The notes: generated by a model from the sequence alone, not told the origin. A stretch of DNA of 63,756 bases, filler included, from Bigelowiella natans CCMP2755 (GCA_000320545.1; 8 parts of 8 records of this genome joined end to end with filler, not necessarily neighbours in it), one strand, 5' to 3'. Numbered from the whole stretch's first letter, positions 38 to 46,781 are shown. Translations and numbers: made by a program.

Positions 38-346
38 GTAACCTTCGCAGCAAATCGAGGCCGTTTTGAGGCAAAGCCTACTTATCAGGGCGTGAAGATG
101 CACGTGGGGTATTATGACACGGAGAGGGAGGCTTGGCAAGCTGCACAAGCGTATCGACTACGCACAGGTTGGCCCCCGGCTGCCTTCCCAAAACATATCG
201 TAAAGGAGATTGGTCGCGATTCCCTCCGCAAGGCCGAGAAGGAGAAGGAGGAGGAGGAGGAGGAGGAGGAGGAGGAAGAGAAAGAGGGGGGGGGTGGCGG
301 TGGGCCCTCTCTGGCCAATCCTGCTACTGGGAATCTCTACGGTTAG
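38..346 (+). CDS. Terminal exon of an AP2/ERF-like DNA-binding domain protein (5' part outside window)
   Basis: After acceptor ctcgcag the frame reads VTFAANRGRFEAKPTYQGVKMHVGYYDTEREAWQAAQAYR, resembling the AP2 pattern (G)V...W.A....G...LG.F.TE.EA..A; acidic poly-E tail, TAG at 346. Confidence 0.6.
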   Translation, partial: VTFAANRGRFEAKPTYQGVKMHVGYYDTEREAWQAAQAYRLRTGWPPAAFPKHIVKEIGRDSLRKAEKEKEEEEEEEEEEEKEGGGGGGPSLANPATGNLYG

Positions 347-1562
347 AGAGCTAGAGAAGAGGGCTGTGTGTATGGCGACGGAGCGAGGAAGAAAAGGTAT
401 GGGGACCACGACGAAGACAGGGTGCCTATGATGAAATATTAAGCTCTGATCACAGAGCAGGTGGGAGGCAACACAGCCGTGCGTGTACGCATCCTTGTTA
501 GCAGTAGTAGTGGTAGTACTAAGTAAGTAAGTAGGCACGGGTCTGCTGCCTCCCCCCCTCAGATAGATTACGTTTTGGCTTCTCACCGCTGCTTGGGTAA
601 AGCAAGTTGTTATAGTAGTAGAAGAAATAGCGGAGGTTGTTTTAAAACAGAAGAATTAAATTCTGGCAGCAGAAGAGTTGTAAATTGCGACTTCTCTTCT
701 TGGTAATATTGTAGCATTAGTGTGGTGTAAATTTAAAGTAGTTGCAGTAGTAGCAGTAGTAATAGCGTCGCAGTGTATGTAATGAAAGATGCCTTATCAA
801 TTTAATATTAGTAGCATTTTTCCTAATCGATGTCATCTATTTTGGGGAATGAAGATGCAAACCGGAGCGTGTGATGAACCCCACGAGTTACATAACGGTA
901 GTGCACGCGCGCGTAGCAGCAAGAGCAAGGTTACTTGTATTCAAGCAAGACAAAAGCTTTTCGTTCCCTTGACCTTGGATTTCGATGTAGCAATTGCCTT
1001 CGTCAAGAGGTTATTAACACCAAGAGGCCGTAGTGGAATTAGCATGAGATTCAGCGCGCGGGCGACGCTTGAATTGCACCTTTGCATATATTCAATCTAG
1101 CAATGCTAGAATGCTTTGAACGATTGTAAAGCTTAAATTCAACGACGCATGTATTATGCTGCGTCTATACATTACGTTCACGCGTCACGTACGACACATA
1201 GGACGCAGCAGTCTCATGCACAATAAGATGCATAGACGGAGCCGCTGATGTAATAGCGCACAAAAGCTGCCACAGCAGCACCCATCACTTTGATCACATG
1301 ATGCAACAATCTGATGAATAATGAAGTCACAGGCGGAATGACGACTAGGATGCACAACACCTCTCGGTCCGCATGCATGCCATCATTCATCTATATTGTC
1401 TTGCAATCGCTATCTAGCTATGATGACGCGTAGAAGCTAGCAGGTGTCATGTGACATGAATTGTTGGCACTTACGAACTAGCTTGGGCGCATCTTAGAAA
1501 GATGACTTATTTGGATATGTACACTAATGTATAGATACTTATATGTGCATATATAAATGTAC

Positions 1563-1601
<39 letters not shown>

Positions 1602-1606
1602 CAACA

Positions 1607-2566
1607 TCAACGACTTCGAGGAGAAGCGAGGAAAGCAGAGATTGCTCCAGGAGGCATACACGAACCAATCAGCATGATATCGACTAGCTTTGAGTCGTGC
1701 CTGCGAATGGTAGCGTCAACAGGATGCAGATTTTTAAGAACATTATGGTTCAGTTTCTGAAGTCTTTGAACAAGTGGTGATAATAGTTGCCAGAATCGTC
1801 GGCACAATAGCGGCAATGTCGCCACGCTCTGCAGCCCAAGATACGAGGAGATGTTATTCAGTGCCTTCGCGTCGATCTTCTGGACTATGTTTTGCATCCT
1901 CTCATTCATGATAACAGATACTGGTACTTCGCATTTGGTCAAAGGCGGGGACTGCCTGCAAAGTATCTTTGTGTCGGACTGCTGCGTTGGGTTGTTGTTA
2001 GCTGAATCTGGTAAGTTTCGAGGAGATTGAACGAACAGGAGCGGGGGCAGGTTGTTTCTTCGGAATGTCCTTCGTTGAATAGCTCTACTCCACATGCTTT
2101 TCTTCCTTTGGGCTCTTGGTGGGGGACACAATGTACGTGCTAGATTGGACTCCTCAGTGCTCGCCGTCTGGGTTGTAAGAGGCAACCTCTTCGTCTTGAC
2201 CATTGAGTAGTTCCTCCTGTACGCATACCTTGGAACTTCCTCGCAGGTAAACTTCTGGTCAAAATTATAGTGTTGTCGAGCTAAGGTTTCTTGAATCAAC
2301 CTCCTCCTACCCGACCTTGTTTGCCTCGAAGAGTACCCACTTTCGAACCTAAATCCGGGAGATTTCACCATCATCCTTCCGCAATGCTCCTCTTCGCTTG
2401 CTTCGCCAGTCGAGAAGGCATTTGAGCGTATTTTCCTCGGCAAAAGTGCTCGTTGAAGTTGCGAAGTGCGAGGAAGCGTGTTAGGAGCGGTCCGACGTTC
2501 GAAAAGGCGCGGGGGAGAAGTTGCACGGGACTTCATTCCGGGTTGGCTTGATTGACTCCTCGCCAT
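1607..2566 (-). CDS. Intronless hypothetical protein, R/S-rich N-terminus, possible F-box-like motif near C-terminus
   Basis: About 1-kb open frame free of microsatellites (track starts at TTG 2614; first ATG 2566); IDAKALNNISSYLGLQSVATLPLLCRRFWQLL resembles the F-box consensus. Confidence 0.5.
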   Translation of the reverse strand: MARSQSSQPGMKSRATSPPRLFERRTAPNTLPRTSQLQRALLPRKIRSNAFSTGEASEEEHCGRMMVKSPGFRFESGYSSRQTRSGRRRLIQETLARQHYNFDQKFTCEEVPRYAYRRNYSMVKTKRLPLTTQTASTEESNLARTLCPPPRAQRKKSMWSRAIQRRTFRRNNLPPLLFVQSPRNLPDSANNNPTQQSDTKILCRQSPPLTKCEVPVSVIMNERMQNIVQKIDAKALNNISSYLGLQSVATLPLLCRRFWQLLSPLVQRLQKLNHNVLKNLHPVDATIRRHDSKLVDIMLIGSCMPPGAISAFLASPRSR

Positions 2567-2878
2567 TGCGGCGTCGTCGTTGTTGTGGCGTGCAAGCACA
2601 CGCTGCAATTCCAAGTTTTCTTCAGAAATAGAAAAAAACGCCTCGATTTTTGGACTAAATTCTTTACCTTTGATGTCGCTCGATGTTTTTCCAAGTCAAA
2701 AAAAATCGATCAGCTCGATCCTCTTTTTTAGAGAACTTGTGCGAATTCGCAGAACATTTTGGCCCAAACGCCCTACATTTTCGGATTTTTACAGGGAAAA
2801 ATGCCTGTGTCGTTCAGACCATCCGACCGACCGCGAACGTGCCCTCACAGTACGTAAGGAGAGGAGGCAGACGCCATC

Positions 2879-3445
2879 ATGGCAGCCCCCCCCTCAGCCT
2901 CGCAGAAACTCGAAGTGGGAGCAGCAGTGAAAATGGTGAAATAATGCGAATAGCTCTAGCCAATAGAGTGTGGTGGGAGGGGGGGAGTCGGTTAATGTGT
3001 TGCACGTGGAGGTGATGATTCTAGGTCACGTCAGCTTCTCGTGATTTCATACGATGCGTGTAGAAGGGAAAAGGGGTTATGTCCTTCCTCGGAGCAGGAA
3101 AAGAGGGCGCTGTCGATTCGGCACTTCGAAAGACTATCTTCGCATTGTTAAAGGCGTGCAAGGCTATTTCATACATGCTGCGAACAGACACAGGGGACCA
3201 GAAAGGGTGGGGACTTCTCTGCTACCTCTGCTGATTCATGCTGCTGTAGAAATTGACTTTGTTGTCATTTAAACTTTGTGCAGGACTACCAACGCGTTTG
3301 GTGATGATCAACTGGACACCGATGTTATGGCCGACAAGCTCGTATTTGAACATCTCCAGGTTGTTGTTTCTCTGGGCTCTGGGGTGGGAGAGGGATTGTG
3401 AAGAACGACGCACAGTCTCTCTTTCTCCACAGTCTCTCTTTCTCC

Positions 3446-3542
<97 letters not shown>

Positions 3543-4367
3543 ATCGCTCTTTCTATCTCCCTTTCTCTCTCTCTTTTTCTATCTCTCATTTCTCTCTCAT
3601 TTTTCTCATTTCTCTCATTGCACTTTCCCGTCATTATTAGGCATGCGGCTGCGTGCACACGGCATCCTCCGAGGAAACACCAAAAGAAGTCAAGATTGGC
3701 GGCAAAGGATATTCCGTAGCGTTCGATCCCCTTGATGGGTATGCATGTGCTGCTAAGTCGTCTACGACATATTGTGCACTTCTTTGCTTGCAAGTAGTAG
3801 GAGGGAGAGTGAGTATCCCAATTTACACGTTGAGACGAATGTTCATCTTTTCTGGCGTCGTTGTTGTCGTTGTCGTCATCTTTGCTGCTTGTCCACCATA
3901 TGATTTCTCTACCCACGGTGGCATTCTGCCGTGCCAAAGCGATATCCTACACTGTGCTCGTGGAAGTATAGTAGTTCGGAAAAGGAGCGACGGGGGTCTT
4001 TTTCATATGCATACACGCCTAATCACACGCATGTACTTGCACAGATCCTCAGTAATCGGCAGCAACTTCAGTGTTGGCACAATCTTCGGTGTGTGGCCAG
4101 GGGATAAGCTGGTTGGGATTACAGGAAAGTCCCTCAAGGTAGTCGAGCGAAATAAGGAACCAGTGGAGTCAATGAGGGGGGGGGGGGGGGGGGGGGGGGG
4201 CAGAGGCCTTACTCATGAATCCCCATCAGGGGGCGGGGATGGGGGGTTATGGACCTCGGAAAAAAATAACCCTTGCAGTTGATGGGAAGTTGCAAAACGA
4301 CCCCATGGTTTCTTGTTTTAAACATCCCGATCAACGGAAAGTAGTAGGGAAAATCATCCCCCGGGAC

Positions 4368-4422
<55 letters not shown>

Positions 4423-5972
4423 CTGATATCTTAGGCATTCCAGGGGCACATGAGTTCATGCTTGTTGATGACCGAAGCGCCTTGAATGGTAGCTGGGTAC
4501 ACACGAAAGCTTTCACGAGCATAAAGGAAGGAAGGCTATTTGCACCGGGCAATCTCAGAGCTACGAATGATAACGAGGGATACGCCAAACTACTCGATTT
4601 CTGGTACTTAGACGTAACGAACGATGACGTGAAAATGTAGCTGCAGCATTATAACCTAGCGCAAATGGTGTTTCAATCCGTCGTAATCTCAAAGCGCTAG
4701 TATTGGTGAGGACTGGGGGCATTTCCTGGAATTTGTGTAGTGTAGCTTTTTTATGATGATGTTGCGGTTATATCGATGGTGGCATGTATTATGGGTTGAA
4801 GCTGCGATGGCCTCTTCGGATTTCTCATCCTTTTCGTTTAACTACAACCGCTATAACACGTTAGGAGGACTAATGCATACACTCTACGATATACGGGGGG
4901 AATGGTAGTACCGACATCATCCATCACCAAAGTGAAGAGAGGCCGCCATCATACTGAGACTCTTTCCCTCTCGCTTCTTCTCCTCCTCTTCTTCACTCTG
5001 CCATTTCCCCCCCCTTTTGCGCTGTCTGTGTGTTGGCAAGGTGCCAGATGTAAATCAGATACTCATCAAAGGAAAAGGTGTCTATAGATGAATGTGTATG
5101 ATTCCATACGTCTGTGAGATGGTGCTTGCTTGCAACGTACGTGTCGTTCACAACCGAAATCAGAATCACAATCCCCTCCTTCCCCCCTCCACCTCGCATT
5201 CTTGTCTCACACACACCTCCCATCTCTCCTGAGCCGCCATTGTCCATCTTCAGGTATCTTCGTAAATCCGGTTTCTAAGTCGCACAAAGCAAAACTCCGC
5301 CTCCTCTACGAGGTAGTAGCTGCATGTACATGCATCGACGGATGCGGTTTGGATGTTCTATTGCTATTCTGCCTCTCCGCGTCGTTGTTTTCTTCGTTAC
5401 CTGCATAGATCATATCCCTAATACGGACAATCCCCCCCCCCCCCCCCTTGTCCCACTCACAAACACTGTTGTTGTCGGTGATGCTATTCATGATCGTCTA
5501 TACACAGGCAATCCCGGGAGCGTACATCGTCGAGAAGGCAGGTGGGGCTTCTTCAGAGGGCGATCGCTCTCTTCTGGAGGTGAAGATTAACAGCACCCAA
5601 GACCGCACACAGGTATGGCTGCTGCTTGCTATTGCTGCCTCGTGATACTTGTCAAGAGCTCGATAGATTCCCTAGTGAGCTCACTTGTTAACTGCTTTAT
5701 GGCCACTGCGAGAGCTCTTGGTTCCACTGCCGTCACGCACAGAGAGTCCCTCTGCGATGTTTTGGGCTTGTTTTTTCCCCTAAATGGCGTTGTTGCTTGC
5801 GTGGTGGATGCATCGCGCGCAAGATAGTTTCTGCATGCGTGTGAGCCCATGATTTTACTGTTTCCCCCGACGCACCGCTACTACCCGCCCTCACCAGGTA
5901 GCATACGGCTCCGCAGTTGAAGTGAAAAGATTCGAGGAATTCGTTGGGAAGAAGTATCTATCTAGTCTTTAG
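2879..5972 (+). CDS. SBP: Sedoheptulose-1,7-bisphosphatase (FBPase class I family), multi-exon
   Basis: Stitched exons: [12 protein letters not shown]|[32 protein letters not shown]..|[23 protein letters not shown]|..[18 protein letters not shown]|[27 protein letters not shown]|..YGPR..|[14 protein letters not shown]..|YTLRYTGGM|[13 protein letters not shown]|[14 protein letters not shown]|..EKAGG..DRTQ|[14 protein letters not shown]; these are SBPase hallmarks. Confidence 0.92.
3449..3537. repeat. (CT)n microsatellite in SBPase intron; representative of the many intronic (AT)n, (GT)n, (AG)n, (CAT)n, (TTG)n, (CTA)n, (CAG)n tracts
   Basis: Directly visible perfect dinucleotide run. Confidence 0.95.
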
Positions 5973-7453
5973 GCACACCATCGAGACGTCAGCTGCATTT
6001 CACTTACTCTTCGCTACTCGGTTTGCTAGAAAATGCCATTATTACTAAATATCCGTGCGTGTATACACGATAAATAATCGATGCACCGGCCTCGAATCAA
6101 ACGCCGGAGTACGTCAATTTATTACGTGCACGCTCGATGACGTCGATGTCGCATTTGTCTACTGTTGGTGTTGCATGCAGTCTAGCAGTGCGCAGATGCA
6201 TATTCTAGATAATTCGACATGTGAGCATTCCTAGATTCTCCGAAAGGCAATACTTTGTATGACGTACGTCGTATTGAGTATTGAATGTGCGTGCGGAGAA
6301 CATATATCCCGTCGTCCGAAATCATGCTGCAGTAGAACATGATGGTGATACTATATTCCCGCTCGCTGTGTGCATGCGATGCATGTGCGCACGTACCGTC
6401 CTAGCGTCGTCATTGCCAACGTAGCTTGTACATATCTGCTTCTGCGCCGCGTAGCTATTCATGTGCTAGCTGAGCTGACCTATTGCACATACGATCTAGC
6501 GATGCGCCATCTCCAACGTGCATCTTGGCATTAATTCCGTACCGCTATCTATCTAGCTATATATATGCGACGCATGTATATTAATCTGTTAAGTATAATC
6601 ATGATCGAACGGCCATTGCATATCGTAAACATATAGCGGTGTAATCTGGTCTCTATCTTTTCGATGACGCTCGCGTTGCTTATCAATAAGCCTACACGAT
6701 GCGAATGTAAGCTCTACTAAGCTACTCCTGATGATAGACGCAGTGATTTCATACGTCTATCATCCTGCACACACACCTCGACGTACACGCTAGCTAGCTA
6801 GACACGCAGACTGCAGCTCCTCTACATAAACTGCAAAATATGATGACAAACATCACCATGTTTCTACACATGAAATATTTGCATGTATGGGGTGAGAAGT
6901 TGATCCATATGGCGCCGCGCAGCAGGACGACCACCATACGGTGAGTTTTTATGGGTTAATGACGAGAAATACATGTCGCGGCCTAGTTCGCACTGCCTTT
7001 CCTTTCTTTCCATTCCCCCCCCAACCAACCCACGCTTCGATGCACTCTTACAATTGTTCTTTCTTCTGGGTTTCGGATGTACTTGTTTATCGTGCATCAG
7101 GCGCCACGAGACTCTTCTGCTCACACAGCGGACTTGAGCAAAGACCCCCCTGCATTTATTAAAAACATGAAAGAGGACAATGCAAAAGCAGCTGAACACT
7201 TTGGTTTTGCACCAGCAGGAGGAAAATGAAGATCGCAGCGAAGGAATGGTGAGAGAGCACACGAGAACTTCCGATTTTCTGCCACTCTCTAGATATCGTC
7301 GTTCGTCTCTTCATTGAATCACCATCTTCCATCTTCTCATTGAAAGAAATACGCGTAAGAACCATCAACCGCAGCATCATCATCAGACACGTCGAGACGG
7401 CCCCCCCCCCCCCCCCCCCCCCCCCCTCCCTTCCCCTCCTGCTCGGTTATCAA

Positions 7454-7868
7454 TCATCTACCTAAGGCAGATGATCGTGGCTCATCACTGGACATCGTTC
7501 CATATTTATAGTCCTCAGCAGATTTTCCCGGAGTTGTGGTAGTCTCATCACCCGTCGTCGCATTGCCTTCTATATCAATGGCGATGCTCTCCCCCCCCTC
7601 TGAGGCACCGCTGGCAGAGAAGAGCTTTCTATGTATTTGCCGTACTATCATCGAGCCCCAGTGAAACTGCAGAAGGGTGAGGCCTAAGTGCGCCGGGGAG
7701 GGGGGGGGGAAGGCGAATGGCCGATGAGAATGGCATCGATGGTTTGCTACGGCGGTGAGGAATGGCGAGAAGAAGCATATCTTGCTTATTCTGCCTGGGC
7801 CTCAAACCGTGGCATTGAAGATACACCAAGGCAGGCCGTGGACGTGGATTTATTCTTTACAAATCTTC

Positions 7869-7909
<41 letters not shown>

Positions 7910-8263
7910 CATATCCCCCCCGTTCCCCCTAGTAGAGAGTCTTAGTTCCCAATTTGCGAGGCGCTATTCGGCTTTACTATCTGTTACAACAACAACAACT
8001 ACTACTACTACTTCTACTACTACCACCATTACCTATGTTAGCCATCATGGTGAATATCAGCTGGAACGAGTAACCCCTGCCTCGCGACAATGCGTCCAAG
8101 CTATCTCCCCAAAACTAACATGCAAATCGAGTCTAATCAGTGCGTTGAAAGTGTGTGTGTGTGTGTGTGTGTGGGCCTCTTGGGGATTGATATGGTGAAT
8201 CGTCAAAAGTCCAAAAATGGTTTCTCTATCGATATGAGAAGTGTGAGATCTCGGTTTGGTGCT

Positions 8264-8311
<48 letters not shown>

Positions 8312-8848
8312 ATTTTATTGATTCAGTAAGTGGCATTAGTGGGTAATATACCTGCATCGATATATAGGGCCAGTAAACGACACGAATCGATATGAACAAC
8401 GCCGCAAACATGATCCTGAGCAAGATTTCCATTCAATCACGTATAAAAACTCTCTCTCTCTCTCACACACACACACACTTTGTCTCTCACACACAAACAC
8501 AAACACACGTGGAGACTTGGCAATATTATTTGCATCGATTAACGGCGATCAAACGTGCGCCGCGTGTGCAACCAAACCTCGAGATCTCGTTGACTTGCGT
8601 AAGATATGGGTTGATGGCAGGGTTTCGTAGCCGGGGAAACTCCTTGAAGAACTCGACGAACGTCTGCGATATAGTATATTTGTGCATTCATGGAGAGGAT
8701 GGGAGAGGCAGAGTTGGGACATTGCATATGGATATAGTATTTGCACTCTATCATCGATGAGCCAAGATGCATTTGTATTGTTAATGTCCTCTCATCACAC
8801 GAAGTGGGAGCCCTCCGCGACGATTGCAGTAGAAGAAAACAGACACGC

Positions 8849-8885
<37 letters not shown>

Positions 8886-8983
8886 ATATGTATATATTTA
8901 TAATAAATGTTTCTCATTACCAGGAACACACTCGAAACCTCTGAGACACCGAAGAAAAAGATACCTGTAATCCATACCAGGCA

Positions 8984-9025
<42 letters not shown>

Positions 9026-9232
9026 AGATTGACTTCTGACAGTAACCTTCATTTGGAAGGCAATCATCGATATTATGGCAGCATCATCATCGATAGAGCC
9101 TCTAAATCTTTCTGGAACTTCTTTGGAAAATCTCCTTCAAATACCGCTCCTACATCTATGATTACTGTTCTGCCGCGGCCGTCCACAAATTGCACATTTA
9201 ATATATCAAATTTATTTAAACTATATGTATGT

Positions 9233-9267
<35 letters not shown>

Positions 9268-10045
9268 ATAACATATATGAACGTTCAAAGGGGAGGGGGG
9301 CTGGCCGCATACTGTAGTATTGGAGAAGGTTGTCGTGATAGGACCAGAAAGCAAGGATCATCGCTATGAAAGAAGAGACGATGCAACCACATTAAGAACA
9401 TTGCAAAAACAAAAGCAGGGGGGGGGAAGGGGGGGAGTGCAAAGGGGGGAGTAAACGCGATTACGAAGGAAACACAACACACACACACACACACACACAC
9501 ACATGAGGGTGGTTAGATAAAGAGAGCGATGTGTTATTCCTCTTCTTCTTCTTCTTCTTCTTCTTCTTCTCTCTTCCTGGTACCAATGCTGTGATGGGCG
9601 ACTCGATCTGTCTTCCTCAGCGTCTTCTCATATAAGCTAATCACTAAATCATATCTGGCCAACATCGAGCAATAGCACCAACAACAGACAGAAATGTGGT
9701 GAAGGAGGTTAAAGGTGAGGAGGAGGAGGAGGAGGGGAGAGTTCCTCAGTTGTAAAGGAAGTTGGTTGCGTGCTATTTCATATTTAACAGTCGGGAGGAT
9801 TGCGTTGTGGTAGGTGTGAATAGTATAGTAATGCTTTTCTTTCGTGCAGATGATAGTCTCCCCCTCGTGCATACTACATTTGAAAGCTGCAGTTAAACTC
9901 GGCGAGAAGGGAAGCCCCCTCGTGGTAACCGTACACGTGATCTGAGAACAAAAAGGCCCCAGAGTATCGAGAGAGGGGAGGGGGGGGGCATTCAGGGAGA
10001 TGGCCAACATCGACAAGAACAATAAAATGGAATAATTGAAAAGGA

Positions 10046-10082
<37 letters not shown>

Positions 10083-10513
10083 TTGTAACAAATAACCATG
10101 CTCAATTCACGCTGCAACAAATGGAAACCCTCTCAGCAAGTTGCTGCTAATTTGTCCTAACTACCTGTGATCTCGTCTGTCCTATTTGCCCACAGCCAGC
10201 ACCCGAATATCGCACAATAGCTCATGCAAAATAGGAAGCCTGACGGAAACCGCAAAAATTGTCAAACTAACGCCGGGAACACCCACCAAAACAGCCGTAC
10301 ATCGTACACAAGAAAGATCCTCAAAAAGGACATGATGAGAAGAGCAGATGCTAGAGGAGATCGGTCTATCCATGCCGGCAAACACAGCAGCAGCAGCAGC
10401 ACACAGTAATGGCAAGTTGGGGTCGTACATAGTTGATGGGCGGCGAATCCAGAATCCCTACGGACTGGGGACTTGCAGCACACTGAAGAGCGATCCAGAA
10501 CAACAACAATAAC

Positions 10514-10566
<53 letters not shown>

Positions 10567-10595
10567 CAATGGAGGAGGAGGAGCAAGAGCACTAG

Positions 10596-10635
<40 letters not shown>

Positions 10636-11341: not shown

Positions 11342-11532
11342 AAGCTACGACAAGGATGACTCGTTGTCGCTATTGAGAAACGGATTGGAGAAGGAACGGA
11401 TACTGAGGCGAGTGCGCTAGGAGTATCCGATGGTCACGGGATATCCCGGAAAAATCGTAAATTTATAAAAACGATCTGCATTTTTGAGGGAATTGCCAGG
11501 CGACGTGGCCTGTACGAGCGAAGCCGATCAAA

Positions 11533-12437: not shown

Positions 12438-12491
<54 letters not shown>

Positions 12492-12514
12492 ACACACACT
12501 CTCACACACACAAG

Positions 12515-12546
<32 letters not shown>

Positions 12547-12934: not shown

Positions 12935-12987
<53 letters not shown>

Positions 12988-13253: not shown

Positions 13254-13293
<40 letters not shown>

Positions 13294-13781: not shown

Positions 13782-13838
<57 letters not shown>

Positions 13839-33179: not shown

Positions 33180-33218
<39 letters not shown>

Positions 33219-35233: not shown

Positions 35234-37265
35234 CTAGAGATCGTATTTCTGTGAATAATGTGCTCGAAGTCTCGCGTGTTTTTCCCTCCGCTCCTGGTAT
35301 GTGTGACAACGTTACGATGAACAAAGGGAAGCAAATCAGTAACTGGCCAATCGATTGGAAGTGAGGAATTTTCGTCATGTAATAGCACAGTTGCATGCAT
35401 GCTATGCTATGGGTGCAAATTTCTAACCCTATTGCGAGAATCTGCTCTCTCTCGACGTTCCATGTCCTCGTAATCGTCCATCATCCGCTGCTGCTCCTCG
35501 TCATATCTCCGGCCTGCAGAAATAGTTTAAAACAATGCTTGTCATCGTGTGATGACACATTCATCATCTACACGAAAAAATTCGAGAATTTTTCGGCTTG
35601 ATTAGAATCTCCATATTGGCCGACTCGGAAAGAATCAACTGCATCGCATCAAATTAGAAGCATCTGCACATTATTTCCTTATTATTACTACCGTATTTGT
35701 AGCCGCGACTTACGCATATCCGAAGCACCTCTAAGACAGCAAGGGCAAAGAACCCTATACTAACAGTTAATATTCCTGAAGAAGGGTAGTAGGAGAAGAC
35801 ACGACAATAAGGCAGAGCGAGCGAATTAGATGAAATCTCGAAGTGATCTATCAACGAGCTGCAGAGGGGCATACGTGCATCCATCGCCAACAGAAATGGT
35901 CAGGCATAAAAAGAGCTTCCTTCGTACCATGCTTGAGGTGCTCCAGCTCATTATCAGAAATGTTATACTTTTGATGGTTCTGGTCCAACCAGTTCGAATA
36001 CTGATGATTTGATGATTTGATGATTATGATGATTATGATGATGACGGTGGTGATGGTGAACAGCAGCAGCAGCAGCAGCAACAACAACAGGAGGAGGTGG
36101 TGGTGGAGCATCAGAGGATCCATAATTCTTATCTTCTCCATCTCCTTCTTTATCATCCCCCCCGCTCATTGGCATACAGATGCAACACAAAACCTAGGAA
36201 AAGGAACACCACAAACCACCACGAGTGCGTGCCTATTACCCTTTTTCGATACGCAAGTAGCAAGGACCCAGCTGTGATTTCGCCGAGGGCCAGCAGGAAA
36301 CCCATCAACGCAGATATCTAAGCACCAAATCCATGTATTATTCTTCAAATATCTGTGCGTACGTACGTGCGTGCGTGTGCGTGTGCTTTGTGCTCCGAGC
36401 AGGATAGCAGAGCATTTGTGTGTTGAAAAGAGATATTTTAGGTTGAATACTCGTACACATGAGCATAGTTAGCAGTTATAATAATATTTTCGCGGCAGAC
36501 GACGCACCGGATAAAGGCAGCAAGCCCAGCAGCTATTCCAGCAGGAGGCTCCGCAAGTTGAGAAGAACACTGTGCAAATGACGAACATGCCTATAGCCGC
36601 GAGGGGAATGTATACATAATCTGCCGAGGAAGGAGAAAGAAAGGGGGGGAGGTGTAAGAAAAGAGATAAGACATGAGACAGTGAACCGCAATAAATGCAC
36701 GTACACAATGAAGTGCACAACAGGTAAACAGTTGAGACAGACCTGGCCCAAATTTCTTGTCATAAATGTAGAATCCGAACGCAATGAGACCCCCTCCTAA
36801 AAAAAGTATGAGAGAAGACGGAAGAAGGAGAAGGATTTGCTGTTAGTGATATAGGAACTCCACTGGGTATAAATTTGGCCTACCTCCGATGAAATCGAGC
36901 AGGTTAATAATGATGAGCAACTTCCCCTAATGACCAAATCAAACCCACCATCGGTCATGGAGATTCACGGAACAATAAAGCAGCACTTCACATCTAATTC
37001 GCATTGATATTATGAAAAGGAGTTGAAAAAAGAAGCAGGGGAGTCATACGGGGGAGGGTTGGAAGGAAGGGAAAAGAAAAAGGTAGCAGCGTTAAGCGAG
37101 AGACTATTCCGAAGCCCATCGTTTTCATGCCCAAGAAGTTAGCAGAGATAAGATGGAAAAACTGTATGAAACAATGACACTTTTCTCTCGAAGAACCTGG
37201 CACCAGCGGCAGCATGCTCGGCAGCATGTGTTCTGGTTCGGGGGTTCACGCCTGTAGGAAGCCAT
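35234..37265 (-). CDS. Four-TM tetraspanin-like protein resembling plant TOM2A, multi-exon
   Basis: MASYRREPPNQNTCCRACCRWCQ|GKLLIIINLLDFIG|GGLIAFGFYIY|..YIPLAAIGMFVICTVFFSTCGASCWNSCWACCLYP|ISALMGFLLALGEITAG|..|FFALAVLEVLR|..YDEE..|..ARLRAHYSQKYDL*. Confidence 0.6.
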
Positions 37266-37719
37266 AACTACCGCAGCTGGTTGTTATTCAGATCTTCTTC
37301 CCCGTTGAAAAGGTATGGCATTTCATCCAAAATACATCAAACAAAGCATGTCGCATAGAAGAAATTAAATCTATTCCTCGAGTATCTACAGTAGCCCTCG
37401 TCTTGAAGCAGCGAGAGTACCAATAGCGCAGGTCGTTTTATATCTACGACAAGGTATTATTTCCCGTTTAGATAGATGTTTGATGTGCTTTCTCGACGAG
37501 ACGGGTACTAAGAAGTGCTTCAAAACCCAGCTTAGTTCACTTTTTGTTTTCCTTGCGAAGAGTAGTAGAAGCAGTAGTAGTAGCAGTAGTAGCAGTACTA
37601 CTACTAGTACGGGTGTGTGATGCGCTTTTTACTTGTGCTATCTATTTAAGAGGATTTTTAATTGTGTGCATTGATTGGCTTCCTTTGGCTCTTGCTCACT
37701 GCTACATTGATTGATAGAC

Positions 37720-39111
37720 ATGGCTGCCGAGCAGCCGCCACGGAAAAAAATAGGGGTGCAAGACTTTGAGTTTAAGGGTCTGTTGGGTGAGGGATCCTAC
37801 GCAAAAGTCTATCTTGCTCAGAAAAAGAGCGACCAGTGTCAGTATGCGGCAAAAATGGTCAATATAAGAAAGATCCAACGGCTTGGTGAGATGAATTACT
37901 ATTGACCTGAGCTTTCTTGACTGAACTCACAATTTTTCTGTCTCGGCGTGGATATTTAGGAAAATCCCAGACAGTCATGCGAGAACGCAAATGTTTGGCG
38001 ATGTACGTATATCTATCTTGAATGTGCAGCTGACACGTATTGCTCACACCATCAGCCCAATGCATGACATTTCCCCTAATAATGTAGATGCGACCATCCG
38101 AACATCGTCAAGCTCCACTTCAGCTTCAGGGATACGGTGGGAAGGGAGGAAAGCGACAAGAAGGAAGAGGAGGATAGGGAGATGTGAAAATTAGAACAGT
38201 TGATGAGGAAGGCGGGGTTATTGAATAAAACATGACCACCACCACCACCTCCTCCACCTCCACCTCCACCTCCACCTCCACCATCCACCCGTTAGGCTCA
38301 CTTGTATTTCGTGTTGGAGCTTATCTCGGGAGGCGAGCTATTCGAGCTGATAGTGCGGTTAGGGAAGCTTCCCTTCCCTGTTGCACAATTTTTCACGGCA
38401 GAGATCCTGGACGCTGTCGGGTTCGTGGAGTGCCATGCAGCATTTCTATTTCTTCTAGTCCTACTTTGAACGCTGTATCGAATATAGAACGTTTATCTAC
38501 TCTGTTACAATCATTCTTCCATAAATACTTCCATGATAGTTATTTATCATCTTACCCACGTCATCTATCAAATGTTTCTCTCTCACGACACCGCAGATAC
38601 TTGCACAGCAAGGGCATCCTCCACAGGGACCTTAAACCTGAGAACCTGCTGGTAAGCATTGCATCAGCCGTAGTAGCGGTAGTAATAAGTAAAGAACATG
38701 CGCGTATTGATTGTAATTAGCCGTAGCGGTAGTAGTAACAACAGCAGCAGCGTAAACAAACATTATCATCCACATTACCATCTGCATCATCATCATGATC
38801 ATCATCATTATCACCATAATCTTTATCGTTAAACCGGTGTCAGGTCACACAGAATCGCCATTTAAAGCTTACGGACTTCGGCACAGCAGGCTTCTTCGAA
38901 CCAATAGTGTCCACACATCTTAATTCCCCCGGGAATCTCTCCCCTGGTTGCACACTATTCCTCTACCGTTGGCTTTATGACGCATGCACACACATGCACA
39001 CACACGCGCACATGCAAACACGTGCGTGCAGTACATCATATTATTGATCGAGACCCCACGTATGATGTTGCAATATGCACATGCAAATTTATATGTCGGA
39101 CTAAAACACAA

Positions 39112-39163
<52 letters not shown>

Positions 39164-42100
39164 TATTTTATAGTATACATTATTCGAGGATCCGTAACCT
39201 AAGATAACCTAAAGCATGATCGTCGTTGTAACTTTCCATTGTGGAATAGATGGTTCCACCGCTGGACGAGGGGTGGGGGGACGAGGGGTTGTTCCTCCAT
39301 CAACTGATAGGAAATCCTGTGTCGGTAATGATAATAATAATCCGAGAAGAGTGATTCTTGCATGTGCGCGGCGTAAATGCGCGCGCGCGCGCGTATGTGT
39401 GTGCTATTTGGGCATGTGTACCGGCTTCATTTGGGCCTCATTCCTTCTGCTGCTTATTACCATATTATCCCCTCTTCATCATAATCCAACAGCTTTCCAT
39501 TCTCTTTGTCTTTTCGAGCTGCTCTTTCCGTTTGAATCCCTCTCTGCTGCTGCTGCTGCTGCTGCTGCAATTCTCACTCACTTTCTCGCCCTGTTCTCCA
39601 TGGACAATGTACAGGGACAGCTGAGTACGTAGCTCCCGAAATTCTGGACGGGAAGGCACAAACGGGTAGTAGGGGGGGGGGATGGAGGACGTTTGGTATA
39701 TGTATCTGGCCAATGAAGCAGCACAGTCAGCTCTCCAAACATATGATAAACGAGTGGTGAATCCTATAGGCTATAGCGGCGGGTGATGTGGAAATACCTC
39801 TGCCCTTTCTCCTCTCTGTACCTTTAATGATATTTGTCGTTAGCTGCCTGCGATATCTGGTCGATTGGGTGTATTATCTACCACATGCTTGTCGGAAAGC
39901 CGCCATTCAAAGGTAGTAGTCAGGCACTGCGTTGGGCTTCACCATCATCTCGTTGATAAGGTCGATAAGGTCGGCCCTTATCAACGATGCTGTAGCTACG
40001 AGGAACATCACCGCTACCAACTACTGCTACTCCTACCACTACCACTAACTCCTCATCCAGTGCTAACCCAATTCCCATCTGCCATCGTTGTCATCATGGT
40101 CGCTATTTTGCTTGTTTTTAAGAAGTTCCACAATGTCTCGGCCCCCCCCCCCCCCCCCCCTTCTCTCGTTCTCTCTGTGTGTATGTGTATTTTATATAGG
40201 AAAGAGTGACTGGTTGACGTTCAAAGAAGTGAAAGCAGCCAACCCAACGTACAAGATCATAGAGGATCATGACGGAGGAGAAAGAAAACACACACACACA
40301 CACACACATCTCCTCAGTAATTCTGTCTTTTGCGGCGCGACCTCTCTCTCTCGCTCCTAACTTTCATTAATGTTGTCATTTTTGCACCTTTTTATCGTGA
40401 CCCCCCCCCTCTCCCCAGCTTCCCAGAGGATATGCCTCAGTGCGCTAGAGATCTGTTGTCGCGGATCTTCGTCACTGATCCGAGCAAGCGAATCGGCTCG
40501 AAGGTCCTGTACTTTTTAGAGACAGAGATGTAGCGTTATCTCGTCCACGCCGCATAATACGGCACAAATCATCGTCTTTTAGTGCGCATATATACCACAC
40601 AAGTACGAATTCTCCTGTCGGTTTGGGTGATCGATGTCTATCACGATGATGACGGCGCTGATTGCTGACTTTTTCCTCCATTAAGAGTCTTGATGAAATC
40701 AAACGCCATAGCTTCTTCAAAGGTAGTTCTGGCACGAATCATCATGTTGCGTGTGTGCATCATCCTCGATTGCATGCTGTAGTGCTGTCATCCCTTCTAT
40801 AACTGCTGTTACTGCTGCTACTACGACTAGCTTTCGATTGGGACAAACTAAGGGAAATGGAGCCCCCCACGTGGTAGCGGAGAAGTGAAATAACCCATTC
40901 GTACACGTACACGCACATGCACACGCACAGCACATGCACACACATACGCGCACACTCGACACATAGGATGCGGAAACGTTCTGTATCAGCCATCAATAAC
41001 CCACCCTCCCCATCATCGGTACTACTGACTTTACAATGTGTGTGCGTATGTGCGTGTGTGCGTGTGAAAATAACGATGAGGGCGAAAAACGATAACAATA
41101 GATAATAACGACGACAAATACATGTACATAGCAAACTTTAGCCACAAGAGCGGAACGTCAAAACCTGACCACCTTATGCACATTCCCAAGCTTATCAAAC
41201 ATAGCGTTGACTTCCCCCTTCATCAATTTCCTCCTCTCTCCCCTCCTCCTCCTCCTCCTCCTCCTCCTCCTCCTCCTCCTCCTCCTCCTCCTCTTCCTAC
41301 TGCCTTGCTATACCTCTCCTGGGGGCGGTGGTCGTTGTCGTCGTGGACAAAGACGCTCAAGTACGACGATTTCTCGGACGATGGAAGCTCAGACGAATTG
41401 GAGTCAGTCCCCGTTACAGAGGGGTTTCTTGGCGACAATGACGATGGCAGCACAAAGACGACAACCACAACCACGCGCGTCTCGAGCTACGCCGACGAAA
41501 ACGGGGTTGAGATGACCGCAATCACTACCACGACGAGACGGCATCATAGCGATAATAGAGCCCAGACGAGGAAGAAGAAGCTGTTATGGCAAGAAAATAA
41601 AAGTAGTTTATTAACAAGTGAAGTGAACAGTCGGGGGGGAGGAAGGGGGGAGAGTGCAAGCTACTTTCTGAATGCCATCATCACCATCATCGTCAATCCC
41701 ATCACCCCATCCTCATATCTCTGCTCTCTTTATTTCCCTCTCTCGTTCTCTTTACCGCAACCATGGCCACACGCCCCTCATTATCGGCATTAACATTAAA
41801 TACAGAGCACCACAGTGCTGATGCAGTTGGCAGCACCGGCACCAGCAGCAGCAGCACTAGCCCCGGCCACAGTCTCACCCCTGGCCCTGCCTCCTCCTCC
41901 TCATCATCACCATCAACGACGACGACGACGACGACGACGATGGCAACGAAGACAATCGGTATTCAGAGCACTTACAACCAGTTCAGGTCCATCGGGCTGC
42001 CAAGCACATACACTTACGTCTCGACCATCGGAAACTCGAGCACGTACAAGCTCGATATAAGCAAGAACAATCATGCAAAAAAGGGGGGCGGGGGAGCGCG

Positions 42101-43463
42101 ATCGGCGGCGACGATGATACCGACTGCGAGGGAGGGGGGGGGGGGACAGGAACAGGGCGAGGCAGGTGCTAATGCTGCGTGCTGCTGGTGGAGCGCGATA
42201 TTAATGGGGGATGATGATGGTGATGATGATGATGATGGTGGTGGTGATGACGATGATTACATGGCGACAAATGACAAAGATGAGCGCGACAACGATAAAT
42301 GAAAGGTTGATCGTAAGTTGATAATGGTTGCAGCGACAATGATGACTGATGTTTTTTTTTTTTTTTAAATCACGAGTCTTCTCCTCCTCTTACCAGAACT
42401 AGGAAACAGCACGGTCACCCCCCCAGTCTCACCGGGAATAAATCGCAGCAGTGGCTTCGAGGGACGGGGTCAGCAGCGACGAAACACGCTACCAACGTCA
42501 AGTAGATCATTTCGCCAAAATGGTGGCGGCAGCAGCAATAGCGTCCTTCCATTCATCAAGCTGAAGAGCGTCAAGGAGGTCATGATAGTTGTAGTTGTAG
42601 TAGTAGTAGTGGTAGCAGCAATAGTAGTAGCAGCTGTAGCAGCCTCGATTTTGTAGAAGCAAGCATATTCCCACTAGATATTGCTAGTTTGTGCTTCTTC
42701 TTCTTCTTCTTCTTCTTCTTCTTCTTCTTCGTCTTCCTAACCAGCCCGCTAACGCTACACCCTCTCCTCCTCCTCCTCCTTGTCCTCCTCCCTGTCCTTG
42801 TCCTAACTGCAAGATGAAGATAGGCACTCAAAACCTACTGAAGTACCTCAAGACCGACGAGAAGATAGTGTTTGCAGGATTGATCGTAAAGCACAGCTTC
42901 AGTGGCGTGAGTCTCATCCCCAGAAAGCGCGAGCTCATCCTGACCAGCTTCCCCCGCATTCTTTACATCGACCCGAAGAAGGAGGTCATCAAAGGTCGTA
43001 CCTGCTGTCATTCGTTGTCGTCGGCAGCAGCGTCGTTACTAAATGAAACAAACCAAGCAAATGAAGCTGTGACTACCTGCCAGGAGAGATCCCGTGGTCG
43101 CCCAAGATACACGCGGAGGCTAACTCGCGTAAGATGTTTACCATCACTTCCAAAGGTGCGGGTTCGTAGCAGCAGCAGCAGCAGTAGCAGCAGCAGGAGG
43201 AGGAGTGGGATGTGCGCGCGCGCGCGCGCGGGCGTGTATGTATGAAGAAGAAAAGCAACTTTGCTTGAAGGGAAAGGATTCAGGGTTAATCTACTAACAC
43301 TACTGGTGCTGCTGCTTATTGCGACTGAAAAATCCAATCTTTGAAACTTGAAGGCCGAAAATACACGCTGACGTGTTTATCACATGAGACGAAGTCTTGG
43401 GTCGAGATAATTACATGGTGACCGACTGTACTCTCCCCCTCTCACCCTTTCTCTCTACCCCCC

Positions 43464-43530
<67 letters not shown>

Positions 43531-43599
43531 TATATGAATATCCCTTCTTTTGATTCACCTAGGTCGTGTGTGTCCGACTTCCAGCTTCTGACGTATGTT

Positions 43600-43638
<39 letters not shown>

Positions 43639-43901
43639 TTCCTGCATGTACGACACCACAGCATGAAGAACGAGCTAAATGAGCACGTGATTCACATACT
43701 CCCCCAGGGGGGGAAGAAGAAGAACAACAAGAAGAAAGGCATTACTGCAGAGGGAGGAGCTAGAGAGGGGATATCGTCGTCGCCATCATCGATGGCGACG
43801 ACGACGACAGCACACTCGCGCTCGAGCCCTACTATGCTTGTTCAGGAGGGTAATCTTCTCATTTGTTATAGCTTGTGTGTTGGGGTGTGTGTGTGTGTGA
43901 G

Positions 43902-43940
<39 letters not shown>

Positions 43941-44168
43941 TGAGTGGCGCGTAGTCTATCTTGCTCTAAATCATTGATATCTTTAAATGAAGAAAAGGCT
44001 AGCTGAACGTTTTTCGCGACCTTGAATTTCCCCCCCTTTATCTTTGCATCATCTCATGACATGTGGATCTCGATGAGCGATTTCATCCTTCTGAACATGT
44101 GACATCACGCCTTATCTCATCTGCGTCTTTCCTTACGCGATCATGCCGTAGGTTTTGGAGCAGAGTAG
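37720..44168 (+). CDS. PDK1: 3-phosphoinositide-dependent protein kinase 1 (AGC kinase plus C-terminal PH domain), multi-exon
   Basis: DFEFKGLLGEGSYAKV..YAAKMV, HPNIVKLHFSFRD, LHRDLKPENLL, LTDFGTA, SCVGTAEYVAPE, DIWSIGCIIYHMLVGKPPFK; PH-like RKRELILTSFPRILYIDPKKEVIKG|EIPWS. Confidence 0.9.
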
Positions 44169-44488
44169 GTCATTAAATGCCCTGCTGGGATCGTACAGCC
44201 TGTCGCAGATACCGTATATCGTATGTCGAAATGTGCACACGCTCCAATGTGTTTTATAACCGTGTTGTTGGCGCTTGTGAATCATCTTATGAATAGCGCA
44301 TAATAGGCCCAGCCCTCATCGTACTTGCATCCATTACATTGTACATGCATGGCCGGCATGCTCGAGCGTTCCGTCACGCTACTTCGCACAGCAGTCTTGA
44401 AAACATTTGATACATGTCACAATAATATGAACTTAATTAGCTTGTTAATTTTGGCTATATGCGGCGGCTACACATATTTGCGATATAC

Positions 44489-44545
<57 letters not shown>

Positions 44546-44738
44546 TATAATATATTGCTCACATAATAATAATTGAATATATTGGCTGTATGTTATGTCA
44601 TCCATGCGCGACGACAAACATGCACCTCATATGCGGCATTTGCTAGTTAGCCTGCTACCTATTTAAGTGTAAATAATTCCATTGTTTGTCGACGTACAAG
44701 CATTTACATGATCCAAGTCAATGATTGGAAGCTTTGAA

Positions 44739-44995
44739 TTATGTTTCATAGATCGAGAGCTCTCTGATCATCGTTTGTCCCAAATTTAATTTCCTCATTC
44801 TCATCATTTGGGCATCCCCCTTCTTTGCTTCCCTGGCGGAAACATCATCGTCCTCCTTATCAGCAGTCGCCGGTCGAAATCCTCGCTCATGTTGTATAAT
44901 CAGGCTGGTGATGTTGCGGCTTTCCTCCAGCGCCGCAATCAGCATCTGAGTTGTTTGACACGAGAGAGACATTGAAAAGCAAATCACCGCAAATC

Positions 44996-45037
<42 letters not shown>

Positions 45038-46781
45038 ACGTGTGGGGAACACTGGATATAGGTCGATGCGACGATTGTGGCTAACCTCTTGCTCTCTGTC
45101 GAGCCCGGTCCGCAAAACGCGCGAGCCAGATCTCCAGTTCTATCAGCACAAAGCAAAACACACGCACGCACGCAAACGCGCACCCATGCACGCGCGCGAG
45201 AAAAGGGGAGAATGGCACAGAAAAGATTAGCATCTACATCTCTGATGATTCAACACAGCGAGCGATATATCCGAATCCGAGAAAGGAACAGGAGAGACCT
45301 CTCTGATGGTATGCTACGATCGCACTGTGTTAAGAGAGGAAGATGGTGGTATGGCTGATTATGGACCTTGATAGCTTCGCTCTTCTTTCTACGCTCTTCT
45401 CGCCGTTGTTCCCGCCTCATTTCTGCGCTACGCTTCATCCTGCATGTAAAAGTCATGCTGGTCAGCCGGATTTGAGGAGGAGGACGAAGAAGAAGAAGAA
45501 GAGGAAGAAGAAGGCGGTGACAATGGCAATGGTATTGGTGGGGATGGTGCTGGTGGAAGAGGAGGAGATTGGTAATATCCATACATACACACTCAAAGAA
45601 ACAAACCTCTTTAACATCGTTGCGTTGCCCTGAGACGATGTGGATGAAGAAGAAGAAGAAGAAGAAGATGATGATGATATTGGCGGTGGCGCTGGAAGGT
45701 GGTAGAGAGTTTTTCCCGCGCCTATAATATGAACGTAGTCAGCAAAAAATAACCGAGGTCTCAAACTGTTGTTTGCGAGATTGGGTTCATCAACTACCAC
45801 CAGATTGAATAATATAGTAATATTTTCATGAAAGCTCCCACAATGCAGCTCCCACAATGCTGATAGGCTCCGCGACACGACGCATTGCAGTGTTGCGGGA
45901 CAAATCCCATTGGTACTTTCGCCATGGGTTGGGAGGCACCTTGTTTCTGAGGAATGGAGTCCTCTATTCGCATCAGCTGCATCGTTATTCTGGGGCCTAT
46001 TTCCCACACCTTTTATTGTTTTTGGGTGAATGAATCGAGTAGTATGAGGCCATGCGGACGGCGAGGTTAAGTTTCTCACGGGCTGCGCTCACGCTATTGA
46101 TGTCGATCGGCACAATTCCAACATAAATGCCCTGAGGACTGGGGTACGATTGTCGTTCGCTCTTGTTGCTACTGTTAGTATTTTTAAACTAATCATATCC
46201 ATCCATCCGCACCCACCTGGATCTTTTTGTTTCCGAGCTTCGTGCACCCACTGAAACTGTAAATTAAAAACTCACTCCTCATCCTCCGGTGGCCAACCAG
46301 ACTCTTACAAGCTATGCATCATGCTGATGGAGTCGCCATCAAATAAATAGAGCCCCCGTCCCTTCCCACCCCTTCGCCTATCACTAGGCTGTCTACCCTG
46401 ACGGTCACAGATCACAGATCACAGATCACTACCTTTTCTCATCGAGAAAGAATTTTTCATCGACGACTACTGTTTCGTTACCGCTCTGTAGCCCCCCCCC
46501 CTCTTCCAAGCTGTATACCTTCGCCAGATAGTGCCTGGGTGAAGGGAAGGAAGGGGTGTATTAGAGGAGGAGAGGGAAGGGAAAAGAGCTCGATGATGAC
46601 GGTCACTATAGTCGATATAACATGCAACGATGATACATTTAGTGTACATCACAGCTCACAGTGAGTGTGGTGCGGCAGGTTGCTCTTGGCAGGGTGAATG
46701 GTGACCAACCTAATCTGAAAGGCGTCCGAAGACTCGTTGTAATGCATCGTCACCAGTCGCTTCATTTGTCGTGTAGTTAGC
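44739..46781 (-). CDS. Hypothetical multi-exon protein, 3' part (5' lost at gap)
   Basis: In-phase exons LTTRQMKRLVTMHYNESSDAFQI|RHYLAKVYSLEEGGGLQS|GRGLYLFDGDSISMMHS|FFSGCTKLGNKKIQ|GIYVGIVPIDINSVSAA ... terminal MLIAALEESRNITSLIIQHE..IYET*. Confidence 0.5.

What the first reader, a model, noticed from the sequence alone, without database searches (positions are those of the whole stretch)
38..46781. Strict strand alternation: the genes are laid out as head-to-head pairs
Seen: the stitched gene models run +-+-+- in contig 1 and +-+-+-+- in contig 2, so all 12 within-contig adjacencies switch strand (about 1/4096 if orientation were random and independent; the weak relic at 16.3 kb is not counted). 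Start-to-start gaps are about 310, 190, 210, 410 and 455 bp; tail-to-tail gaps are about 0.5-1.6 kb. The paired genes are functionally unrelated (e.g. GH28/CDC40). Inference: a genome-wide rule of shared bidirectional promoters and shared termination zones rather than co-regulated clusters.
Basis: partly seen in the sequence, partly recalled or inferred. Interest (0 to 1): 0.8.

Follow-up and report, generated by a model that had tools for sequence, protein, structure and literature searches.

The report
Back-to-back gene pairs in Bigelowiella
In 47 kb of nuclear DNA from the marine alga Bigelowiella natans, 14 mostly unrelated genes alternate strand, with back-to-back pairs starting 200-450 bases apart on what is likely one shared promoter region; brown algae are known for this layout, and one window cannot show that it is a genome-wide rule.

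Summary
The DNA is Bigelowiella natans (a GH28 matches a JGI model at 261 of 261 aligned residues). My 14 gene models run +-+-+- and +-+-+-+-. RNA laid on 25,000-31,030 confirms four consecutive genes (-,+,-,+), with transcript 5' edges at most about 175 and 260 bp apart. All 5 head-to-head gaps (about 190-455 bp, rich in A/T tracts) are shorter than all 7 tail-to-tail gaps (0.5-1.6 kb, rich in palindromic ATGCAT/GCTAGC words). The inference is only partly supported. 1/4096 uses the wrong null: 62-66% opposite-strand neighbours are published for Ectocarpus, Cyanidioschyzon and Monosiga, and such a genome would hold about 26-49 perfect runs of 12. One possible extra + strand unit (6,840-7,229) and a - strand relic (16.3 kb) were not RNA-tested, and either would break the run. 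Best reading: an Ectocarpus-like bias towards divergent pairs that share a nucleosome-free region without co-regulation; strong, but probably not a strict rule. My searches found no report of it in B. natans. The scan noted similar alternation before in two other protist genomes.

The parts
38..345 (+). Gene 1, AP2-domain protein, 3' part (5' end outside the contig; true stop may lie further 3')
   Evidence: Pfam AP2 E 0.0038, below curated cut-off
346..1606 (.). Tail-to-tail gap 1/2
   Evidence: 27 palindromic hexamers per kb
1607..2566 (-). Gene 2, single-exon 319-aa protein, F-box-like features as a lead only
   Evidence: Held letter for letter in the ESM Atlas and the protein collection, with a 99% identical second record on a 1,003-nt contig; codon usage does not favour this frame
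2567..2878 (.). Head-to-head gap 2/3, 313 bp ATG to ATG
   Evidence: 32 A4/T4 tracts per kb
2879..5972 (+). Gene 3, FBPase-family enzyme (SBPase-like by recalled motif), 11 exons
   Evidence: Pfam FBPase or FBPase_C on 4 of 5 exons tested, in profile order; stop-free chain from exon 5 to the stop
5973..7453 (.). Tail-to-tail gap 3/4; palindrome-rich zone about 6,000-6,900
   Evidence: GCTAGCTAG at 6,789 and 6,793
6840..7229 (+). Unresolved possible small spliced unit (45-57 aa readings); would break the alternation if a real gene
   Evidence: Donor and acceptor scores 3.2-4.6 and 4.9, inside the range of true sites; no credible homologue; not RNA-tested
7454..11341 (-). Gene 4, multi-exon membrane protein (TLC-like by recalled motif); first ATG at 11,150 or 11,341
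   Evidence: Last five exons stop-free with GT-AG borders, modelled frame best of six; 5' exons not resolved
11151..11532 (.). Head-to-head gap 4/5, 383 bp (192 bp if the ATG is 11,341)
11533..15580 (+). Gene 5, CRAL-TRIO/Sec14-like by recalled motif, about 14 exons
   Evidence: 269-aa stop-free chain, two borders not canonical as first drawn; codon LLR 33 against at most 2.5 in other frames
15581..17166 (.). Tail-to-tail gap 5/6 holding a TpA-poor relic; - strand open stretch at 16,321-16,503
   Evidence: TpA o/e 0.44, most surviving TA in CTA/TAG; no homologue
17167..18596 (-). Gene 6, unknown protein, 5' end cut by the contig end
   Evidence: Stop-free 5-exon chain with GT-AG borders; codon LLR 17
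18697..20399 (+). Gene 7, PP2A B55 subunit, 3' part
   Evidence: Stop-free 5-exon chain; PDB B55 E 0.024
20400..21204 (.). Tail-to-tail gap 7/8
   Evidence: 38 palindromic hexamers per kb
21205..25672 (-). Gene 8, class I/II aminotransferase-like, about 15 exons
   Evidence: RNA joints CT..AC and a 1,473-nt contig; about 420-aa stop-free model with one non-canonical border; weak PDB hit E 0.038 below many DARPin hits
25673..25884 (.). Head-to-head gap 8/9, 213 bp; RNA 5' edges at 25,696 and 25,870
25885..27538 (+). Gene 9, 266-aa protein, fibrillin-like with a bipartite plastid-type leader (both recalled)
   Evidence: 9 RNA joints GT..AG and an open frame
27539..28043 (.). Tail-to-tail gap 9/10; main RNA edges at about 27,611 and 27,946
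   Evidence: one low-depth contig at 27,642-27,798
28044..29291 (-). Gene 10, intronless GH28 polygalacturonase-like protein, 415 aa
29292..29704 (.). Head-to-head gap 10/11, 414 bp; RNA edges at 29,311 (a weak piece reaches 29,510) and 29,570
29705..33896 (+). Gene 11, CDC40/Prp17-like WD40 protein, 14 exons, 548 aa
   Evidence: 3 RNA joints, WD40 Pfam hits, stop-free model; the name CDC40 is recalled
33897..35406 (.). Tail-to-tail gap 11/12
   Evidence: 35 palindromic hexamers per kb; GCTAGCTAG at 34,441 and 34,445
35407..37265 (-). Gene 12, tetraspanin-like membrane protein (recalled), 8 exons
   Evidence: Stop-free chain
37266..37719 (.). Head-to-head gap 12/13, 455 bp
37720..44167 (+). 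Gene 13, PDK1-type kinase with PH domain; 3' end approximate
   Evidence: Pfam Pkinase on 3 exons and PH_3 E 4e-11
44168..44738 (.). Tail-to-tail gap 13/14
44739..46913 (-). Gene 14, unknown protein, 5' end not resolved
   Evidence: Last four exons stop-free with GT-AG borders; weakest strand call

Best explanation
The genes here sit in back-to-back pairs whose starts lie 200-450 bases apart, and each pair likely shares one nucleosome-poor, A/T-tract-rich promoter region while being regulated separately, as in the brown alga Ectocarpus. Once most genes are paired this way, the spaces between pairs must be tail to tail, so alternation is a by-product of pairing and not a second rule. Shown: the strands, the gap lengths, the 5' edges of four transcripts and the two gap signatures. 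Inferred: the shared open chromatin; a genome-wide opposite-strand fraction well above 50% (my range 60-85%); and that this perfect run is the lucky tail of a strong but not absolute bias. Speculative: intronless genes such as gene 2 and the GH28 were kept because they landed behind an active promoter, and the palindromic words in tail-to-tail gaps serve 3'-end formation on both strands.
For: RNA confirms -,+,-,+ for genes 8-11, with 5' edges at most about 175 and 260 bp apart. All 5 head-to-head gaps are shorter than all 7 tail-to-tail gaps (p 0.0013). A4/T4 tracts run 13-32 per kb in head-to-head gaps against 1-10 in tail-to-tail gaps and 5-15 in introns. Ectocarpus has 61.7% of genes in divergent pairs, median gap 409 bp, a shared nucleosome-depleted region below about 600 bp and uncorrelated expression (bioRxiv 10.1101/2020.03.09.980763 section 9). 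Against p 0.62, the run favours p 0.75-0.85 by about 10- to 44-fold, or 4- to 7-fold if both doubtful units are genes.
Against: RNA covers 6 of 47 kb, assembled contigs bound but do not map starts, and only 45 raw reads were laid. Five of 14 strand calls have no RNA or library support. The home-made gene finder failed its leave-one-out check, so missed genes are not excluded. The gap features were chosen after seeing the k-mer table, so their p-values are descriptive. No shared promoter motif beyond A/T tracts emerged from five gaps.
Confidence: 0.62

Rival explanations
1. Ordinary genome plus selection: B. natans has about 50-58% opposite-strand neighbours, and this run is chance, helped by post hoc choice of the window and by a fragmented assembly in which tandem duplicates and repeat-rich gaps fall at contig breaks.
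For: The median of 64 eukaryotes is 52% (Table S1 of PMC2871058). Even at 0.5-0.55 about 3-7 such runs are expected among 21,000 neighbours. The window is eight contig pieces, one ending in an exact 579-nt duplication.
Against: P(12 of 12) is 0.0002-0.0008 at these rates. Chance orientation does not explain why all five head-to-head gaps are under 460 bp and share A/T tracts.
Confidence: 0.17
2. Near-strict rule: 90% or more of neighbours are on opposite strands genome-wide, because lone promoters or tandem read-through are strongly selected against.
For: 12 of 12 is most likely under high p. AATAAA is found within 600 nt of only 2 of 13 stops, which leaves room for an unusual 3'-end mechanism. 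The genes cut at the ends of contigs 1 and 2 lack 5' ends and face outwards, as do the first genes of the next contigs.
Against: The highest value in the 64-species table is 65.8%, and brown algae are described as reaching over 60%. Two doubtful units in this window would already break the rule. Contig order and orientation in the window are unverified.
Confidence: 0.1
3. The run is not perfect: a small + strand spliced gene or non-coding RNA at 6,840-7,229, or an expressed - strand unit at 16.3 kb, adds tandem junctions (12 of 13 or 12 of 14). This can be true together with the best explanation.
For: A + strand intron-like segment has donor and acceptor scores within the true range, and one 57-aa reading is the best of its six frames, though only at LLR 0.9.
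Against: No homologue among longer proteins. The two profile hits are repeat proteins of an archaeon and an unnamed contig, matched by summed weak stretches. The 16.3-kb stretch lies in TpA-poor DNA and has no homologue.
Confidence: 0.25

Closest known systems
Divergent gene pairs of Ectocarpus and other brown algae (bioRxiv 10.1101/2020.03.09.980763; bioRxiv 10.1101/2024.02.19.579948)
   Same: Intron-rich algal genome, neighbours on opposite strands, divergent gaps of about 400 bp, partners apparently regulated separately.
   Different: There the bias is about 60-62%; here the local run is 12 of 12. Chromatin was measured there and is only inferred here. I saw no palindrome-rich tail-to-tail signature in the passages read.
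Cyanidioschyzon merolae, Monosiga brevicollis, Cryptococcus neoformans, Thalassiosira pseudonana (PMC2871058)
   Same: Named as genomes with non-random gene direction; 61-66% opposite-strand pairs by my calculation from Table S1.
   Different: B. natans is not in that table. These are mostly smaller, more compact genomes (recalled).
Head-to-head clustering in Chromera and Vitrella (PMC4501334)
   Same: Closely spaced genes are head to head more often than chance; read by the authors as stabilising transcription and not as co-regulation.
   Different: Data not shown there, no fraction given; a different lineage.
Vertebrate CpG-island bidirectional promoters (recalled)
   Same: Two starts under 1 kb apart.
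   Different: The gaps here are not GC-rich (0.41-0.47) and are marked by A/T tracts.
TpA hypermutation of foreign DNA in B. natans (bioRxiv 10.64898/2026.01.13.699255)
   Same: Gap 5/6 is TpA-poor and TpG/CpA-rich.
   Different: No 1-kb window meets both published cut-offs; the other six tail-to-tail gaps have TpA o/e 0.92-1.13, so this does not explain their signature.

Membership tests
Ectocarpus-type divergent pairs with a shared nucleosome-depleted region | Genome-wide excess of neighbours on opposite strands | not testable with these tools
   No genome held; locally 12 of 12
Ectocarpus-type divergent pairs with a shared nucleosome-depleted region | Divergent gap under about 600 bp | tested here: met
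   5 of 5 ATG-to-ATG gaps are 192-455 bp; RNA edges closer still at 2 of 2 gaps covered
Ectocarpus-type divergent pairs with a shared nucleosome-depleted region | One shared nucleosome-free region flanked by two H3K4me3/acetyl peaks | not testable with these tools
   Indirect only: A/T tracts. B. natans ChIP data exist (bioRxiv 10.1101/2025.03.17.643675, passages) but could not be loaded
Ectocarpus-type divergent pairs with a shared nucleosome-depleted region | Expression of the two partners not correlated | tested here: inconclusive
   Gene 8 to gene 9 contig depth 32:61, 69:11 and 46:30 in three runs; a poor measure
Vertebrate-type CpG-island bidirectional promoter | Starts under 1 kb apart | tested here: met
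Vertebrate-type CpG-island bidirectional promoter | GC-rich CpG island in the gap | tested here: not met
   GC 0.41-0.47; CpG o/e 0.86-1.48, overlapping exons and tail-to-tail gaps
Co-regulated functional gene cluster | Partners act in one pathway | tested here: not met
   Pairs join unrelated functions (parts list); only the TLC-like/CRAL-TRIO-like pair could both concern lipids, on recalled labels
TpA-hypermutated foreign DNA of B. natans (gap 5/6 only) | [quoted passage not shown] | tested here: not met
   3 of 6 windows meet the first cut-off (0.39-0.42) but reach only 1.35-1.49 on the second; 2 others meet only the second

The most novel reading that the evidence does not exclude
B. natans pairs most of its genes head to head (75% or more opposite-strand neighbours, above any value in the papers I read), and marks its tail-to-tail zones with self-complementary words (ATGCAT, GCTAGC, GCTAGCTAG) that read the same on both strands and act as a two-way 3'-end or termination signal in place of AATAAA.
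Probability: 0.25. Interest if true: 0.68.

Novelty: new member of a known kind. Interest (0 to 1): 0.36.

Why it matters
If the bias is genome-wide, a rhizarian alga has arrived at the same compact two-way promoter layout as brown algae and chromerids, in an intron-rich genome of about 95 Mb. It would give a clean test of why unrelated genes share promoters (open chromatin shared without co-regulation) and of whether incoming intronless genes survive by capturing the back of an existing promoter. It would also hand over short candidate two-way promoters for chlorarachniophyte transgenics. The count itself is an easy job on the public annotation. If the fraction is near 60%, this is one more example of a known pattern.

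Tried and rejected
A metagenome scan with the long CDC40 exon found 74 pattern matches and no relative. RNA could be laid on one stretch only, 25,000-31,030; the run list named no holder on record as RNA, though the spliced contigs laid show that they are RNA. A home-made spliced gene finder was first too permissive and then, left-one-out, failed to recover the RNA-confirmed genes 9 and 11, so I drew nothing from it. Counting strong splice sites per strand was uninformative. Pfam on 149 of the 154 stop-free stretches of 32 aa or more in the seven tail-to-tail gaps gave 3 weak hits, all below cut-off; the 34 stretches in head-to-head gaps were not scanned. This negative is weak: the same scan gave a family-consistent hit for only 11 of 32 true exon pieces, and none for 22 further pieces. 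PDB searches on single exons of genes 5 and 8 gave nothing fitting. The two profile hits to the 7.1-kb exon were rejected as repeat artefacts. A dispersed repeat as the source of the tail-to-tail signature is not supported: apart from simple-repeat-like matches, only one 22-nt match links two gaps. The TpA mutator as a general cause is not supported. The 2012 genome paper is not held.
Full report
Identity. The window is eight contig pieces joined by N spacers. The intronless GH28 at 28,044-29,291 has as best hit JGI model Bigna1|34518 of Bigelowiella natans, identical at 261 of 261 aligned residues apart from a 20-residue gap in the JGI model. The finding covers contigs 1 and 2.

Gene models. 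I rebuilt 14 genes from the sequence. RNA laid on 25,000-31,030 (one raw-read run and three contig runs) gave 14 joints: 2 CT..AC in gene 8, 9 GT..AG in gene 9 and 3 GT..AG in gene 11, plus an unspliced contig over the GH28. Of 45 raw reads laid, first mates lay on + over genes 9 and 11 and mostly on - over the GH28. Pfam placed genes 1, 3, 11 and 13 on +, PDB weakly placed gene 7 on +, and gene 2's 319-aa product is on record. Genes 4, 5, 6, 12 and 14 rest on stop-free spliced chains; their family labels are recalled. In a leave-one-out codon-usage test the modelled frame ranked first of six in 14 of 16 models; the exceptions were gene 2 and gene 14, whose model was out of frame in that run.

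Could missed genes break it? Two candidates remain. At 6,840-7,229 a + strand segment has plausible splice sites and a 45- or 57-aa reading. It has no credible homologue: one search found none among longer proteins, and the two hits are repeat proteins matched by summed weak stretches. At 16.3 kb a - strand open stretch lies in DNA with TpA o/e 0.44 and survivors mostly in CTA/TAG, close to but not meeting the cut-offs of the TpA-hypermutation preprint (bioRxiv 10.64898/2026.01.13.699255, parts 1-2 of 5 read), and has no homologue. Neither was covered by RNA. Pfam on 149 of 154 gap ORFs found nothing above cut-off, but that scan is insensitive on short exons.

Chance. P(12 of 12) is 0.00024 at 50%. 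From Table S1 of PMC2871058 (outline, sections 5 and 6 and supplements 1 and 3 read) the median opposite-strand fraction of 64 eukaryotes is 52% and the top values are 65.8, 64.7, 63.2 and 61.1%. Ectocarpus has 61.7% of genes in divergent pairs (bioRxiv 10.1101/2020.03.09.980763, passages and section 9), and brown algae reach over 60% (bioRxiv 10.1101/2024.02.19.579948, passages; its per-species Table S1 is in supplements I could not see and may include other algae). At 62-66% the probability is 0.003-0.007, and a genome with about 21,000 neighbours holds about 26-49 such runs. Ignoring selection, the 95% lower bound is 0.74 for 12 of 12, 0.64 for 12 of 13 and 0.57 for 12 of 14. The window was flagged because of the run, so these bounds are too generous. 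The data favour a strong bias; they do not establish a rule.

Anatomy of the gaps. All 5 head-to-head gaps are shorter than all 7 tail-to-tail gaps, the reverse of the yeast pattern as I recall it. RNA contigs end at 25,696 and start at 25,870, and end at 29,311 and start at 29,570, so the untranscribed spacers are at most about 175 and 260 bp; contigs bound starts but do not map them. Head-to-head gaps carry 13-32 A4/T4 tracts per kb against 1-10 in tail-to-tail gaps and 5-15 in the pooled introns of 8 genes, with no GC enrichment. Tail-to-tail gaps carry 24-38 palindromic hexamers per kb against 9-20 in introns, 5-20 in exons and 7-24 in head-to-head gaps. This exceeds a dinucleotide model in 4 of 7 gaps (at most 1 of 100 simulations) and not in the other 3 (6, 15 and 56 of 100). 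GCTAGCTAG was listed at three places, all in tail-to-tail gaps; one 70-nt stretch inside a tail-to-tail gap was left out of that listing. AATAAA follows only 2 of 13 stops within 600 nt. These features were picked after viewing the k-mer table.

How it likely works. Each pair uses one short open region, with a start site on either side; A/T tracts disfavouring nucleosomes is established knowledge from yeast, recalled and not tested here. Sharing does not imply co-regulation: Ectocarpus pairs are uncorrelated, and the rough depth ratio of genes 8 and 9 varies about twelve-fold between runs. Tail-to-tail zones follow from pairing. Promoter capture by intronless genes (2 of the 5 complete pairs contain one) and a two-way role for the palindromic words are hypotheses.

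Literature on B. natans. Searches joining Bigelowiella or chlorarachniophyte with head-to-head, divergent, bidirectional, gene orientation, TSS or polyadenylation (listings) showed no report of this bias. I opened passages of the chromatin survey that includes B. natans (bioRxiv 10.1101/2025.03.17.643675), which filters out head-to-head genes without giving a fraction, of the chromerid paper (PMC4501334) and of the Creolimax paper (PMC4739763). The 2012 genome paper was not held and may mention it. Earlier notes of this scan record near-perfect alternation in two other protist genomes, there with GC-rich spacers; I did not check them.

Verdict. A real local pattern and a likely new example of a known architecture. 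The genome-wide fraction, which decides between ordinary and striking, is untested.

Noticed in passing
window 6,840-7,229 (+): Possible small spliced gene or non-coding RNA between genes 3 and 4; splice scores in the true range, no homologue.
   Followed up: partly
window 15,600-17,200: TpA-poor, TpG/CpA-rich relic with surviving TA mostly in CTA/TAG, resembling the reported B. natans TpA mutator footprint but just short of the published cut-offs.
   Followed up: partly
window 6,789; 15,952; 34,441: A (GCTA)3-type palindromic run sits in three tail-to-tail gaps; a 22-nt near-identical element links 1,093-1,114 and 16,207-16,228.
   Followed up: partly
window 53,558-54,136 and 51,072-51,650: Exact 579-nt duplication at the end of contig 3, inside a + strand dehydrogenase-like gene (label recalled); probably an assembly artefact.
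   Followed up: partly
window 18,596/18,697 and 46,913/47,014: At both contig joins the flanking genes lack their 5' ends and point away from the join, which would extend the alternation if the contigs are in scaffold order; order not verified.
   Followed up: no
window 2,879-5,972: The SBPase-like enzyme starts without an obvious signal or plastid leader by eye, so it may be a non-plastid copy.
   Followed up: no
window 28,044-29,291: Intronless GH28 in an intron-rich genome; closest other relatives are 50-59% identical, mostly unnamed environmental or transcriptome records. The JGI model for it drops 20 residues that RNA contigs cover without a joint.
   Followed up: partly
window 11,851 and about 22,826: Open frames of genes 5 and 8 are most simply kept with GC-AG introns; not RNA-tested.
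   Followed up: no
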